Part shown: in pieces, positions 46,701 to 52,700 of the stretch
Layout: every line of letters starts with the position of its first letter
Numbering within the stretch: the stretch's first letter is position 1
Source of the DNA: Escherichia coli
Lineage (GTDB): Bacteria > Pseudomonadota > Gammaproteobacteria > Enterobacterales > Enterobacteriaceae
Assembly: GCF_965641715.1 (NCBI RefSeq)
Contig: NZ_OZ282453.1
Direction: 5' to 3' (one strand)
Length of the DNA stretch: 64,000 nt
Position numbers: made by a program

Positions 46701-49700
46701 ATTCACCGTGCCGCTCTGGTCGCCGTCAAAGTGCGCCCCGTTATCCACGATGGCTTCTTTTTCCGGTACATGCTGCACGGCGGTGATGGCATACGTGCCG
46801 TCGTCGTTCTCACGGATACTCACGCAGCGGAACAGGCGCTGGCGCAGCGTCGGCAGCTTCAGCCCCCACACGCTGTATTCAGCAACGCCGTCAGGAACAC
46901 GGCTCACTTTCACCTTCACGCCGTCGGTGACGGACTGAACCTCCACGCTGACCGGATTGCCACTTCCGTCAACCAGGCTTATCAGCGTGGTGCCGGAGGA
47001 TGGCAGCGTGATTTCACGGTCGAGCGTCAGCGTCCGGGTCTGGCTGTTCACCGCCAGCACGCGCCCGCCGGTGCTGATACCGGCATAGTCATCATCGCAG
47101 ATTTCAATGACATCGCCCGGTACATGGCGAAGCCCTTCGGCACCCACGCTGAAGTCCACGGTCTGCGTTTCCAGCAGTTCTGTTTTAATCAGCCACAGCC
47201 CGGCGCGGTGCGCCTGCCCCCGACTGGTACAGCCAAACGCATCCATCTTCGTGACGTTACGACCGTAACGGGCAATGGCCTGCGAGTCCTCCACAAGCTC
47301 TGTCGCCGTCTCCTGGCCGTTATCCGGGTCAATCCAGTTCACTTCAACGGCATTATGGCGGTCTTTCAGGGCGCTGAAGCTGTAGCGGAATGGTGCGCCA
47401 TCATCCGGCATCACCACATTACTGCGGTTATAGGTCCACACCTTATCCGACGGTCGGTCCTGCACGAACGTCAGCGTCTGCCCGTTCCATACCGGCATAC
47501 AGCGCATCGCAGAGCAGAAATCACTGAGCACATCCCACGCCTTGCGCTGTGTGGTCAGGTACGCATTACAGGTGATGCGCGGCTCCGTGCCGCCAAAACC
47601 GTCCGGCACCGACTGATCGCAATGCTGGCCGATGACATACAGCGCCCATTTGTCCACATCCGCCGCACCAAGACGTTTCCCCATGCCGTAGCGCGGATGG
47701 GTCAGCATATCCCACAGACACCAGGCCATGTTGTTGCTGTATGCTGGCTTAAACGTTCCGTCCCAGATACCGCTGTATTGCCGCGTCTGCGGGTTATAGT
47801 TCGACGGCACCTGCAGAATACGCCCGCGCAGATGATAATTACGGCTCACCTGCTGGCTGCCGAACTGCTCCGAATCCACCTGTACGCCGACCAGTGCCGT
47901 GTTCGGGTAGCACTGTTTCACATCGATGATTTCGGTGTATGACGACCAGAGCGTTTTGTTCTGCAGCTGGTCTGTGGTGCTGTCCGGCGTCATTCTGCGC
48001 ATCCGGATATTAAACGGGCGCGGCGGCAGGTTATCCACCACCACCGAGGCCAGATACTGTGAAGTTGTTTTGCCCTTAATGGTGATATCTTTTTCCGTCA
48101 CCCAGCCACCGTTACGCTGTATCTGAACCAGCAGGCGGACTTCCGACGGATTCCGGTCCCCTTTTGAGGTGGTTTCCACCAGTGCCTGCACGCCGAAAGT
48201 AAAACGCAGACGGTCAATGTTTGCCGACGTGATGGTCCGGGTGATCGGCGTGTCATATTTCACTTCCGTACCCAGCACCGTCTCGGATCCGGAGGATTCA
48301 AAACCCTCCGGCGGTGTCTGCTCCTGCTCACCGGCCCGGAACACCACCGTGACACCGGAGATGTTGGTATTCCCCTCACTGTCCAGCACCGGCGTACTGT
48401 TCAGCAGCACGCTTTTTAATCCCTCCACCGGACCTTCTATCGGCCCTTCGCTGATGGCATCAATCACACTCAGCAACTGCGTGGATTTCAGATTGTCCTT
48501 CGCTTCTCGCGGGGTATGCCCCTTACTGCTGCCTTTACCCATTCGTCATACTCCATAAACGACAAAACCGCCCGCAGGCGGTTTCACATAAAACATGTTG
48601 TATCAGCGACCAATCACCACAACCTGACCACCATCCCCTTCGTCTGCCGTGCTGATCTCCTGAGAAACCACCCGCGACCCCACGCGCATTTCACCGTACA
48701 GAACGGGCAGAACATTGCCCTGGGCAACCATGTTATCCAGTGAGGAGAAATACGTATTCTGTTTGCCGTTATCCGTTGTCTGTGTACGGGGGGTTCTGGG
48801 TTTAGGGGCCAGCATCTGTGCAACACCGCCAAGCGTCATACTGGCACCGAGAGAAAACAGCAGATTGCTCGCCATAATTCCTACCCCCGGCATCCATATA
48901 GCAACCGCCATAACAGCAGCGCCCAGCACAGCCTGAAACACTCCGCCACTTTTAGCCCCAGCCAGACGCGGCACGATGTGGATCACGGCACCATTCGCCA
49001 GCGGTTCATTAAGACGGGCTGATAATTCTGTTTCACCGGCATCATGCCCGGCAATGCGTACCTGATACCAGCCGTCGCTCAGTTTCTGACGAAACGCCGG
49101 GAGCTGTGTGGCCAGTGCCCGGATGGCTTCAGCCCCCGTTTTCACACGAAGGTCGATGCGGCGGCCAAATCGTTGTAAATCCCCGTAAAGGCAGATGCGT
49201 GCCATGCCCGGTGACGCCAGAGGGAGTGTGTGCGTCGCTGCCATTTGTCGGTATACCTCTCTCGTTTGCTCAGTTGTTCAGGAATATGGTGCAGCAGCTC
49301 GCCGTCGCCGCAGTAAATGGCGGCATGATTCGGCACCGATGAACCAAAGCAGCACAGCAGCACATCGCCCGGCTGCGCCTCTGTCAGTGCGACACGGTAA
49401 AAACCAGTCGCCTCCATATTGTCAAGATAGAGATTCTGGCCGTGACGCCACCAGTCATCCCCGCGATGAAAATCCGGCATCTCAATCCCCGCCAGATGGT
49501 AAGCGTCCCGGAACAGCGTGTAACAGTCCGTCACCCCGTGCTCAAAGCGCCGCCCGGTGAGATGCGGCACACAGCGGAACTTATGAATCACTCCCCGGCA
49601 GACCAGCCACCACGGCAAATCACTCTGCACCTGCAGCCGCCTGTCGGCCTCACTCAGCCAGGGCAGACCACCGGGGTGGCTGTGGACCAGCGCCACAATC

Positions 49701-52700
49701 TCACCCTGTATTTCTGCCTGCAGCCAGTCCTCCGGAGCCATCCGGAAATAATCCTCCGGCTCACCGGAGATATTCACGCAGGGAAAATATCTTTCTCCCT
49801 CCAGTGTTCTCACCACGAAGCCGCACGACTCCGCTGGCGCACATCGCCGGGCGTGCGCCAGAATCGCTGATTCAGTTTCTGTCATGGATTTACTGCGAAA
49901 GTTTGTTAATGGAAAGGTAACCGCCAAAGTTGCCGAGGTTATTGCGAAACTTACAACCGCTCAGGCATTTGCTGCACTTATCCTTCGTGATATCGGACGT
50001 CGGCTGATCATATTCATCCGCGACCGCCGGACCGTGATAACCGCACTCATCGCCGCGATAGGTCCAGGTGCAGGTATTAGCCAGCATGATGCGCCCCGGA
50101 AAAACGGCACCATCCGTTTCCGTCGGTGTGGACAACACAAAGGAGGCACTGACCGCGCTCAGTTCGCTGCACTGCTCAATGCGCCAGCGGCTGAGCACCT
50201 CCTGCTCCGGATCGGCGTCACTGTTTCCGTTGACGAAGTTCACCGCATCCAGAAAACGGGCGTAAACCTTACGCCTGACCACCGTTCCGCCGACCAGACT
50301 CTGCAGATCTTCCGCCATCCCGGTGACCATACCGTGCAGGTTAGAAACCGTCAGTGTCGGACGGGCAGCACTGCCCTTGCCGTTCAGTTCAAATCCTGTC
50401 CCCTGAATGGGGTATGCCTGATACTGCCGCCCCTGCCAGGTGACCGGCTCACCTTTTTCGTTCTGCTCATTACAGAAAAAATAACGTTCTCCACCGACCT
50501 CTGTCAGGTCGATTTCCCAGAGCACCACGCTGGCCGACTGCTCCGCACGGGTGCATTCATTCAGTGTTTCCTGCCGGATATCCTGCATCAGTTCACCACC
50601 TGTTCAAACTCTGCGCTGAACTCAACACGCAACATACTGACCCGCGACGACCATTTTGCGCAGGTCACCTTTATCTGCCGGTAGCCATAAGGCGGCGTCC
50701 ACAGAAAGGCCTTCCAGCCCCCGTGCTCTGCCAGAAACGATTCCAGTGCCGTGGCCTCCTCGCGGGGAACAGAAAGCGTCACGCTGTACGTTTTCAGGTC
50801 GGCGTTCAGCCCGGCAGGCGCACGCTGAGAATAGCCATCACCAAAGCGCACCTTTCTTACAGAAGGGGCCGAAGCCACATCCATACCGGGTTTCACTTTC
50901 CAGCGGAAGGTTTTCATCGTCCACCTCCGGAGAACAGGCCACCATCACGCATCTGTGTCTGAATTTCATCACGGGCACCCTTGCGGGCCATGTCATACAC
51001 CGCCTTCAGAGCAGCCGGACCTATCTGCCCGTTCGTGCCGTCGTTGTTAATCACCACATGGTTATTCTGCTCAAACGTCCCGGACGCCTGCGACCGGCTG
51101 TCAGCCAGACTGCCCGGTGTACCGACATAACCACCGGTGGCATAGCCGCGCATCAGCCGGTAGAGATTCCCCACGCCAATCCGGCTGGTTGCCTCCTTCG
51201 TGAAGACAAATTCACCACGGTGAACAATCCCCGCTGGCTCATATTTGCCGCCGGTTCCCGTAAATCCCCCGGTCGCAAAATGGAATTTCGCCGCAGCGGC
51301 CTGAATGGCTGTACCGCCTGACGCGGATGCGCCGCCACCAACAGCCACGCCAATGGCGCTGCCGATACTCCCGACAATCCCCACCATTGCCTGCTTAAGC
51401 AGAATTTCTGTCATCATGGACAGCACGGAGCGGGTGAAGCTGCGCCAGTTCTGCTCACTGCCGGTCAGCATCGCCGCCATATTCTGTGCAATACCATCAA
51501 AGGTCTGCGTGGCTGCACTTTTTACCTGCGACATACTGTCCGTGGCGCTCTCTTCCCACTCACTCCAGCCGGACTTCAGGCCTGCCATCCAGCTCCCGCG
51601 AAGCTGGTCTTCAGCCGCCCAGGTCTTTTTCTGCTCTGACATGACGTTATTCAGCGCCAGAGGATTATCGCCATACTGTTCCTTCAGGCGCTGTTCCGTG
51701 GCTTCCCGCGCTGCCTGCCGGTCAGTCAGCCCCCGGCTTTTCGCATCAATGGCGGCCCGTTTTGCCCGTTGCTGCTGTGCGAATTTATCCGCCTGCTGCG
51801 CCAGCGCGTTCAGGCGCTCCTGATACGTAACCTTGTCGCCAAGTGCAGCCAGCTGGCGTTTGTACTCCAGCGTCTCATCTTTATGCGCCAGCAGGGATTT
51901 CTCCTGTGCAGACAGCTGGCGACGTTGCGCCGCCTCCTCCAGTACCGCGAACTGACTTTCTGCCTTCCACAAATCCCGGCGCTGCTGGCTGATTTTCTCA
52001 TTCGCTCCGGCATGCTTCTCCAGCATCCGGAGTTCTGCCTGAAGCGTCAGCAGGGCAGCATGAGCACTGTCTTCCTGGCGATCGCCTGCAGACACTTTCA
52101 CGCCGGACTGCTTCGGCTTTTTCAGCGTCGCTTCATAATCCTTTTTCGCTGCCGCCATCAGCGTGTTGTAATCTGCCTGCAGGATTTTCCCGTCTTTCAG
52201 TGCCTTATTCAGTTCTTCCTGACGGGCGGTATATTTCTCCAGCGGCGTCTGCAGGCGTTCGTAAGCCTTCTGCGCCTCTTCGGTATATTTCAGCCGTGAT
52301 GCCTCAGACTCGGCCCAGTCCTTTGCTGCCATCTCTCTGGCCTTTTCAAGATCGGCCTGCAACGTGGCGGCTGAAAGCCCAAGTTGCGCATTCGCTCTGT
52401 CCTCCCATGCTCCCCGGAGATTGGCAAGAAATGCTGAGGTTTTACCGCGCCGGTGGCTCCGGCTCTGATACCACTGCCATTTTTTGTCCGCCTCATCAAA
52501 AGCCTTTTCTGCTTTCTCCAGCATTCCCTGGGCAGTGTCCGGGCGACCAATATCCAGCACCGAATCCCACATGGATTTGAATGCCCGTGCTGTCCTGTCT
52601 GCCCAGGTCTCCAGCGTGCCCATGTTCTCTTTCAGGCGGCGGGTCTGGTCATCAAACCCTTTCGTTGCGGCCTCGTTCGCCGCCTGCAATGCCCCGGCTT

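What the first reader, a model, noticed from the sequence alone, without database searches (positions are those of the whole stretch)
49142..49927. Tail-tip gene K may be longer than the lambda annotation
An ATG at 49885, five bases after the L stop, opens a 247-codon frame whose N-terminal part looks like the start of an MPN/JAMM fold. The lambda K product I recall is 199 aa. Either this phage K is longer or the true start is internal.
Basis: inference. Interest (0 to 1): 0.25.

Follow-up and report, generated by a model that had tools for sequence, protein, structure and literature searches.

The report
Full-length lambda-type tail gene K
This prophage's tail-assembly gene K encodes the normal 247-residue, two-peptidase protein found in lambda-like phages, and the "199 aa" remembered for lambda comes from one base missing in the 1982 lambda reference sequence, so the finding is ordinary.

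Summary
On the minus strand an ATG at 49885 lies 4 nt after the L stop (TAA 49892-49890) and opens a 247-codon frame ending at 49142.

The long frame is almost certainly the real gene.
- Residues 1-48 complete a Prok-JAB/JAMM domain, including the invariant catalytic Glu19. The motif reads E19...H68-S-H70-x7-S78-x2-D81.
- These codons are under purifying selection and model with high confidence.
- They align in about 1,700 phage records, down to 28% identity.
- RefSeq already annotates this exact 247-aa ORF (WP_097439608.1, "C40 family peptidase") in a 100% identical E. coli PEC41 prophage.

The 199-aa lambda K is a reference-sequence artefact. J02459/NC_001416 lacks one G near 14266 (GGAGGC-TATTTCC). 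Five independently sequenced lambda-lineage genomes carry that G. No match among 5,426 complete E. coli genomes reproduces the G-less version. With the G, lambda K is also 247 aa.

The internal ATG (Met49) has a GGAGG 11 nt upstream, which explains the 199-aa gene calls. Met49 is not conserved (Ile in about a third of close relatives).

The JAB + NlpC/P60 architecture was published in 2006. Verdict: already known, low interest. No N-terminal protein data exist.

The parts
49142..49885 (-). Gene K, full-length CDS (247 aa plus stop): tail tip assembly protein with JAB/JAMM and NlpC/P60 domains
   Evidence: ORF geometry. Identical ORF annotated by PGAP as WP_097439608.1 in E. coli PEC41. Pfam domains. 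Homologues of 242-249 aa covering it from residue 1.
49592..49876 (-). Prok-JAB (MPN+/JAMM) domain, residues 4-98
   Evidence: PF14464, 50.9 bits, profile positions 4-103 of 114. Foldseek hits to PfJAMM1 5ld9/5lda, 2kks, Rpn11 and CSN5. phmmer hit to 2kks over residues 7-102.
49829..49831 (-). Codon GAG = Glu19, the 'E' of the JAMM motif; lost in a 199-aa product
   Evidence: Invariant in alignments A3 and A4. E in 94 of the 96 close homologues that cover it.
49643..49684 (-). H68-S69-H70-PGGLPWL-S78-EA-D81: the HSHx7Sx2D metal-binding part of the JAMM motif
   Evidence: Read from the sequence. All five named residues are invariant. Motif definition taken from the abstract of PMC300881.
49214..49555 (-). 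NlpC/P60 papain-like peptidase domain, residues 111-224 (Cys121 at 49525-49523, His187 at 49327-49325, His199 at 49291-49289)
   Evidence: PF00877, 47.9 bits, full profile 1-105. C121, H187 and H199 invariant. Foldseek hits to MepS, LytE and CwlO.
49886..49892 (-). L stop codon (TAA 49892-49890) plus the 4-nt spacer before the K ATG; the inferred site of translational coupling
   Evidence: Sequence. No Shine-Dalgarno pairing upstream of the ATG (+0.7 kcal/mol). K starts 0-10 nt after, or overlapping, the L stop in five diverse phages.
49739..49757 (-). GGAGG (49757-49753), 11-nt spacer, and in-frame ATG (49741-49739 = Met49): the position equivalent to lambda's annotated 199-aa start
   Evidence: Anti-SD pairing of -9.5 kcal/mol. 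The GGAGG lies within the conserved Glu-Pro-Glu codons. JLK-2012 keeps the GGAGG but has ATT at codon 49. Position 49 is M in 73, I in 40, L in 4 and V in 1 of 120 close homologues.
49925..49927 (-). Upstream in-frame TTG (would give 261 aa); rejected as a start
   Evidence: It overlaps L by 38 nt and has no SD (-1.7 kcal/mol). The L-K spacer is 4 nt here and 5 nt in lambda and mEp460, so the upstream frame is not conserved.
49890..50588 (-). Gene L (232 aa), the upstream neighbour
48603..49244 (-). Gene I (ubiquitin-like tail assembly protein), the downstream neighbour; its ORF overlaps the 3' end of K and its start is uncertain (49244, 49205 or 49145)
   Evidence: PMC1779556 proposes I as the substrate of K.

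Best explanation
The region is the ordinary, full-length K gene of a lambda-like prophage tail cluster (H-M-L-K-I-J).

Translation most likely starts at ATG 49885 and gives a 247-residue protein with two peptidase domains. The N-terminal domain is a JAMM/MPN+ zinc metallo-isopeptidase (E19, H68, H70, S78, D81). The C-terminal domain is an NlpC/P60 papain-like cysteine peptidase (C121, H187, H199).

The ATG has no Shine-Dalgarno sequence and sits 4 nt after the L stop. Initiation is therefore inferred to occur by translational coupling (termination-reinitiation) from L. That would fit a low-abundance assembly factor that is not found in virions.

The published prediction is that K processes the ubiquitin-like N-terminal domain of the neighbouring protein I during tail-tip assembly.

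The '199 aa' lambda K is not a biological difference. The 1982 reference sequence lacks one G (GGAGGC-TATTTCC, about position 14266), which splits the ORF so that only the part from Met49 could be annotated. Other lambda-lineage genomes carry the G and encode the same 247-aa protein.

What is shown: the ORF, the domains, the conservation, the selection and the reference indel. What is inferred: the actual initiation site in vivo, the coupling, and both enzymatic activities and their substrate.
For: ORF and junction.

Domain completeness: the 247-aa form matches Prok-JAB profile positions 4-103 at 50.9 bits. The 199-aa form matches only 65-103 at 22.3 bits, below the cut-off of 25.

Conservation: E19, H68, S69, H70, S78, D81, C121, H187 and H199 are invariant in 20 sequences from 30 to 93% identity.

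Selection: pN/pS for codons 2-48 is 0.07-0.33, against 0.13-0.24 for the rest of the gene. An accidental out-of-frame control gave about 1.

Breadth: tblastn found 1,751 phage records, 1,722 covering at least 80% of the query. In the 60 rows sampled across the ranking, alignments start at residues 1-11 in all but one weak partial hit, down to 28% identity. Close homologue clusters are mostly 242-249 aa.

Structure: AF2 mean pLDDT 91.8. Residues 1-48 form a helix (3-15) and two strands (21-27, 30-36), and the 10-residue blocks covering residues 1-40 average pLDDT 93-97. Foldseek hits JAMM enzymes and NlpC/P60 enzymes.

Existing annotation: the identical 744-nt CDS is in RefSeq. Long-form K is also annotated in mEp460, JLK-2012 and lambda PV340536.

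Reference indel: searches show the G in LC730321, KT232076, DE3, lambda imm434 and PV340536. Searches show that the two other G-less records derive from the reference. In one search the best hits in 5,426 E. coli genomes are all 99.7% with a 302-nt span, and none is 100%.

L-K adjacency is conserved.
Against: There is no direct protein-level evidence (N-terminal sequencing, proteomics or initiation-site profiling) for any K start.

The ATG at 49885 has no recognisable Shine-Dalgarno sequence (+0.7 kcal/mol). The internal ATG has a GGAGG (-9.5 kcal/mol), although at a long 11-nt spacing.

Gene callers pick the internal start in a sizeable minority of contigs. The 199-aa clusters P0051, P0060, P0065 and P0067 hold about 11,000 member sequences.

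I could not find raw reads or a paper stating that the lambda cI857 Sam7 stock sequenced in 1982 carries the G. A private mutation in that stock, rather than a reading error, is therefore not excluded.
Confidence: 0.9

Rival explanations
1. Two products from one gene. The 247-aa protein starts at ATG 49885. A nested 199-aa protein starts at the internal ATG 49741, using the GGAGG 11 nt upstream. That product would be an NlpC/P60 peptidase with a crippled JAB remnant, in the manner of lambda's nested C/Nu3 or S107/S105 pairs.
For: GGAGG with -9.5 kcal/mol pairing to the anti-SD lies before an in-frame ATG, here and in lambda and mEp460. Lambda-type phages are known to use nested starts (established knowledge; C/nu3 and S/S' appear in the annotation). 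Met49 is present in 73 of 120 close homologues.
Against: Position 49 is Ile, Leu or Val in 45 of 120 close homologues. It is also not Met in JLK-2012, Yersinia, Mannheimia, mEp515 or HK106. JLK-2012 keeps the GGAGG without a start codon, so the GGAGG is explained by the conserved Glu-Pro-Glu codons. The 11-nt spacing is longer than the usual optimum. A 199-aa product would lack one helix, two strands and the catalytic Glu of the JAB fold.
Confidence: 0.08
2. Only the internal start is used, so K is 199 aa as in the classical lambda annotation. The 144 nt between L and that ATG would be an untranslated spacer.
For: The classical annotation in J02459/NC_001416. The SD-like GGAGG. Several newer records copy the 199-aa annotation even where the long ORF is intact: DE3, lambda imm434 and PhiR47_1.
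Against: The 'spacer' is an open frame under purifying selection. It encodes the conserved N-terminal third of a JAB domain with an invariant catalytic Glu. It is conserved as protein down to 28% identity. The lambda annotation rests on a sequence lacking one base. On a contig where 199 aa was called, the long ORF is open.
Confidence: 0.02
3. The start is the upstream TTG at 49927, giving 261 aa and overlapping the end of L by 38 nt.
For: It is the first start-type codon of the maximal ORF.
Against: There is no SD (-1.7 kcal/mol). The L-K spacer differs by one base between this prophage and lambda/mEp460, so the upstream extension is out of frame in relatives. Homologues begin at Met1 to residue 5 of the 247-aa form.
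Confidence: 0.01

Closest known systems
Lambda tail tip assembly protein K (gpK; 'TAPK' of Iyer, Burroughs and Aravind 2006, PMC1779556), as encoded by resequenced lambda (e.g. PV340536, XSB40720.1, 247 aa)
   Same: 93% amino-acid identity over all 247 residues. Same position between L and I. Same JAB + NlpC/P60 architecture and same start context. Same 3' overlap with the I reading frame.
   Different: Only point substitutions, and a 4-nt rather than 5-nt L-K spacer. Against the reference annotation (NP_040598.1, 199 aa) it looks 48 residues longer, but that difference comes from one missing G in J02459/NC_001416.
RefSeq WP_097439608.1, 'C40 family peptidase', prophage of E. coli PEC41 (NZ_CM168023.1)
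   Same: The 851-nt query spanning the gene is 100% identical in DNA. The annotated CDS is the same 744 nt starting at the same ATG.
   Different: Nothing. This is the same gene in what is probably the source genome or a near-identical one.
JAMM/MPN+ deubiquitinase-like metalloproteases (P. furiosus JAMM1 5ld9/5lda, AfJAMM, Rpn11, CSN5; Pfam PF14464 Prok-JAB)
   Same: Complete EXnHSHX7SXXD motif and the same predicted fold for residues about 1-105. A gene for a ubiquitin-like protein (I) lies next door, as with JAMM1/SAMP2.
   Different: The domain is fused to a second peptidase (NlpC/P60). No E1/E2-like genes are nearby. Activity and substrate are untested. Sequence identity is only about 23-26%.
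NlpC/P60 (C40) cysteine peptidases such as E. coli MepS/Spr and B. subtilis LytE/CwlO
   Same: Fold and the Cys-His-His catalytic triad are conserved.
   Different: The protein has no predicted signal peptide and is not found in virions (PMC10721106). A cell-wall hydrolase role is unproven, and the proposed substrate is protein I rather than peptidoglycan.

Membership tests
Lambda gpK / TAPK family of tail tip assembly proteins | Encoded between the L and I homologues in a siphovirus tail gene cluster (H-M-L-K-I-J) | tested here: met
   ORFs: H 859 aa, M 109 aa, L 232 aa, K, I, J 1165 aa. One search shows the same order in the PGAP annotation.
Lambda gpK / TAPK family of tail tip assembly proteins | Two-domain architecture: N-terminal JAB plus C-terminal NlpC/P60 (PMC1779556) | tested here: met
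   PF14464 over residues 4-98 and PF00877 over residues 111-224, both above the gathering cut-offs. PHROG 30 'minor tail protein', E = 3.9e-161.
Lambda gpK / TAPK family of tail tip assembly proteins | High full-length sequence similarity to lambda K | tested here: met
   93% identity to the 247-aa lambda K of PV340536 over the full length.
Lambda gpK / TAPK family of tail tip assembly proteins | Required for tail assembly; not a virion component | not testable with these tools
   Literature only: gpK was not detected by mass spectrometry of lambda virions (PMC10721106), and it is required for assembly with location unknown (PMC12617516).
JAMM/MPN+ metalloprotease | EXnHS/THX7SXXD motif | tested here: met
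   E19 ... H68-S-H70-PGGLPWL-S78-EA-D81. All are invariant in A3 and A4. Motif definition from PMC300881.
JAMM/MPN+ metalloprotease | MPN fold | tested here: met
   AF2 model, pLDDT 91.8. Foldseek probability 1.00 to 5ld9, 5lda, 2kks, 4ocm and 4o8x.
JAMM/MPN+ metalloprotease | Zinc binding and (iso)peptidase activity | not testable with these tools
   Needs biochemistry.
NlpC/P60 (C40) peptidase | Catalytic Cys at a helix N-terminus plus two His | tested here: met
   C121 (in D-C-Y), H187 and H199 are invariant. The full-length PF00877 match covers profile positions 1-105. The model places C121 at the start of helix 121-131.

The most novel reading that the evidence does not exclude
The internal GGAGG + ATG (Met49) might be a genuine second initiation site in the lambda/mEp460/PEC41 subgroup. 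One gene would then yield a full JAMM + NlpC/P60 enzyme and a nested 199-aa NlpC/P60-only protein whose ratio tunes tail-tip assembly. On that reading the historical 199-aa 'K' would be a real minor product rather than purely an artefact.
Probability: 0.08. Interest if true: 0.35.

Novelty: already known. Interest (0 to 1): 0.12.

Why it matters
For this window it matters little. The gene is already annotated correctly in RefSeq, and its domain architecture has been in the literature since 2006.

The by-product may be useful to phage biologists. The canonical lambda entries (J02459/NC_001416) give a K protein truncated by 48 residues and lacking the catalytic Glu of its JAMM domain, and at least one structural-bioinformatic review analysed gpK as "199 in total" (PMC7291167). 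The cause is a single missing G. Several recent GenBank records copy the 199-aa annotation even though their own sequence has the intact 247-codon ORF (DE3, lambda imm434, PhiR47_1).

Anyone testing the long-standing proposal that K is a deubiquitinase-like protease acting on the ubiquitin-like protein I should clone from the ATG that follows the L stop, not from the annotated start.

Tried and rejected
1. A programmed +1 frameshift in lambda K to explain the split ORF in the reference. Rejected because five independently sequenced lambda-lineage genomes simply have one more G and no E. coli genome has the G-less version.

2. Treating OR974322 and OR474059 as independent confirmation of the G-less sequence. 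Rejected for two reasons. OR474059 is 100% identical to the reference over 1-24513, carries only the engineered cI857/ind1/Sam7 changes and an insert, and is marked UNVERIFIED. OR974322 differs from the reference only within 45037-46312, including Sam7. That pattern is what a reference-guided consensus built from a control amplicon would give; this last step is my inference.

3. Testing whether LC730321 is the cI857 Sam7 stock. It is not. It has an intact stf (+C at 20833) and wild-type cI and S. I therefore could not test the very stock sequenced in 1982.

4. Literature searches for a published note on the missing G or on the length of gpK. None was found. Casjens and Hendrix 2015 and Liu et al. 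2013 (lambda ribosome profiling) are not in the held library.

5. My first pN/pS run used PhiR47_1 one base out of register. Those rows (ratio about 1) serve only as an out-of-frame control. Its correct long ORF starts at L004:916 and is intact.

6. NCBIfam gave only sub-threshold hits (desampylase at 27.5 bits, phage_NlpC_fam at 21.5 bits), so there is no NCBIfam family name to assign.
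Full report
**1. What is in the sequence**

Everything here is on the minus strand. 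Gene L (232 aa) ends with TAA at 49892-49890. Four bases (atcc) follow, and then ATG at 49885-49883 opens a frame that runs to TGA at 49144-49142. That is 744 nt, or 247 codons plus stop. The finding's outer coordinate, 49927, is an in-frame TTG further upstream that defines the maximal 261-codon ORF. The neighbours are H (859 aa), M (109 aa), L (232 aa), K, I and J (1165 aa), which is a lambda-type tail cluster.

**2. Source and existing annotation**

An 851-nt query spanning K is 100% identical to a prophage in E. coli PEC41 (NZ_CM168023.1). A K-like region occurs in 4,374 of 5,426 complete E. coli genomes. In PEC41, NCBI's pipeline annotates exactly this 744-nt CDS, from the same ATG, as WP_097439608.1 "C40 family peptidase". 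A 97.8% relative is named "Mov34/MPN/PAD-1 family protein", also 744 nt.

**3. Is the N-terminal extension real protein?**

Several independent lines say yes.

- *Domain completeness.* The 247-aa product matches Pfam Prok-JAB over profile positions 4-103 of 114 (50.9 bits, cut-off 25) and NlpC/P60 over its whole profile. The 199-aa version retains only JAB positions 65-103 and falls below the cut-off at 22.3 bits. The 48-residue extension alone hits JAB positions 3-41.
- *Catalytic motif.* The JAMM motif is EXnHS/THX7SXXD (PMC300881 abstract). Here it reads E19 ... H68-S-H70-PGGLPWL-S78-EA-D81. All these residues are invariant in alignments spanning 30-93% identity, as are the NlpC/P60 residues C121, H187 and H199. 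The Glu lies in the part that a 199-aa protein would lack.
- *Selection.* For in-frame pairs among the window, lambda, mEp460, JLK-2012 and PEC422, pN/pS over codons 2-48 is 0.07-0.33. The rest of the gene gives 0.13-0.24. A sequence I accidentally took one base out of register gave about 1.
- *Breadth.* tblastn against 50,697 phage records finds 1,751 with a match, and 1,722 cover at least 80% of the query. In the 60 rows sampled across the ranking, alignments begin at query residues 1-11 in all but one weak partial hit. This holds down to 28% identity, in T1-like, HK97-like, Klebsiella, Mannheimia, Ralstonia, Stenotrophomonas, Vibrio and Pseudomonas phages. Close homologue clusters are mainly 242-249 aa.
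- *Structure.* AlphaFold2 on a 20-sequence alignment gives mean pLDDT 91.8 and pTM 0.86. Residues 1-48 form a helix (3-15) and two strands (21-27, 30-36). The 10-residue blocks covering residues 1-40 average pLDDT 93-97, and the 41-50 block averages 87. Foldseek against the PDB returns two families: JAMM/MPN enzymes (P. furiosus JAMM1 5ld9 and 5lda, DSY2949 2kks, Rpn11, CSN5) and NlpC/P60 enzymes (MepS, LytE, CwlO). By sequence, only 2kks is found.

**4. Start-site signals**

The ATG at 49885 has no Shine-Dalgarno pairing (+0.7 kcal/mol). The internal ATG at 49741 (Met49) is preceded by GGAGG (49757-49753; -9.5 kcal/mol) at an 11-nt spacing. This explains why gene callers, and annotators copying lambda, choose 199 aa. 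Four 199-aa clusters in the protein database hold about 11,000 member sequences. On one such contig the long ORF is open upstream.

The internal site does not look selected as a start, for two reasons.

- Position 49 is Met in 73, Ile in 40, Leu in 4 and Val in 1 of the 120 closest cluster representatives.
- Phage JLK-2012 keeps the GGAGG, which encodes part of the conserved Glu-Pro-Glu, but has ATT at codon 49.

K begins 0-10 nt after the L stop, or overlaps it, in JLK-2012, Mannheimia 535AP2, mEp515, HK106 and tiwna. The more distant of these have a recognisable SD before the long-form start. I infer that in this prophage K is initiated by translational coupling to L. This is an inference, not a demonstration.

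The upstream TTG is rejected. It has no SD, and the L-K spacer differs by one base between this prophage and lambda, so the extension is not conserved in frame.

**5. Why lambda K is listed as 199 aa**

J02459 and NC_001416 annotate K at 14276-14875 and leave 148 nt after L unassigned. In the reference, an ATG 5 nt after the L stop opens a frame that encodes the same JAB N-terminus. It is out of register with the annotated K by one base.

Alignment shows that the reference reads GGAGGC-TATTTCC. Five other lambda-lineage genomes read GGAGGCGTATTTCC, which gives one continuous 247-codon ORF:

- lambda Lambda_AGU (LC730321)
- lambda from K-12 CV601 (KT232076)
- DE3 from BL21(DE3) (EU078592)
- lambda imm434 (OM418626)
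- lambda from an MG1655 lysogen (PV340536)

PV340536 annotates K as 744 nt.

Only two other records share the G-less version, and neither is independent.

- OR474059 is an UNVERIFIED construct that is 100% identical to the reference over 1-24513.
- OR974322 differs from the reference only between 45037 and 46312, including the Sam7 change. I interpret it as a reference-guided consensus.

Against 5,426 complete E. coli genomes, the best matches to the 301-nt reference segment are all 99.7% identical with a 302-nt span, and none is 100%. The 199-aa lambda K is therefore an artefact of one missing base. That base could be a reading error or a private mutation of the sequenced DNA, and I could not decide between the two. 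It is not a biological difference between lambda and this prophage.

**6. What it does**

Iyer, Burroughs and Aravind (PMC1779556) described the lambdoid and T1-like "TAPK" proteins as JAB + NlpC/P60. They described the neighbouring "TAPI" as a ubiquitin-like beta-grasp domain ending in a conserved Gly. They proposed that K's peptidase domains process I.

gpK is required for tail assembly, but its location is unknown and it was not resolved in the virion structure (PMC12617516). It was also not detected by mass spectrometry of lambda virions (PMC10721106).

My best mechanistic reading follows these papers: a low-abundance, non-structural, dual-peptidase assembly factor acting on I during tip assembly. 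The enzymatic steps are untested.

**7. Comparison, novelty and score**

The gene passes every sequence-based membership test for the gpK/TAPK family and for both peptidase superfamilies. The biochemical features cannot be tested here.

Nothing about the window's gene is new: the same CDS is in RefSeq and the architecture is published. The one point of modest practical interest is that the lambda reference entries, and analyses based on them, use a truncated K. PMC7291167, for example, treats gpK as "199 in total". I found no paper that states the discrepancy, but my literature access was limited.

Interest is 0.12. Novelty: already known.

Noticed in passing
window 48603-49244 (- strand), gene I; also L001:1774-2445, L003, L009, L012: The start of gene I is annotated three different ways in public records. 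One is the lambda-style ATG (window 49244; 213 aa here, with a 103-nt overlap with K). One is PGAP's ATG at Met14, 'MARICLYGDL' (window 49205; 200 aa). One is a GTG overlapping the K stop (window 49145; about 180 aa). I homologues of Mannheimia 535AP2, mEp515 and tiwna begin at the Met14-equivalent position, which is the first strand of the ubiquitin-like domain. The GTG start would remove about 20 residues of that fold.
   Followed up: partly
L014/L001 (NC_001416) about position 14266, versus L005-L009: The lambda reference genome lacks one G relative to five other lambda-lineage genomes. This splits K into an unannotated 5' fragment and the 199-aa 'K'. Several recent records (DE3, lambda imm434, PhiR47_1) carry the intact 247-codon ORF yet still annotate 199 aa.
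   Followed up: yes
L017 (OR974322.1, 'Escherichia phage Lambda isolate P6/2022/SA'): This record, said to come from chicken cloacal swabs, is identical to NC_001416 except for six changes between 45037 and 46312, including the laboratory Sam7 amber. It looks like control DNA or a reference-guided assembly rather than an environmental isolate.
   Followed up: partly
L015 (LC730321.1, Lambda_AGU) position 20833: This lambda genome has the extra C that restores an intact side-tail-fibre gene stf (Ur-lambda-like). It has 15 differences from the reference in all.
   Followed up: no
window 49886-49889 versus lambda 14128-14132: The L-K spacer is 4 nt (atcc) in this prophage and 5 nt (atccc) in lambda and mEp460. 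It is a small indel in a probable translational-coupling junction.
   Followed up: no
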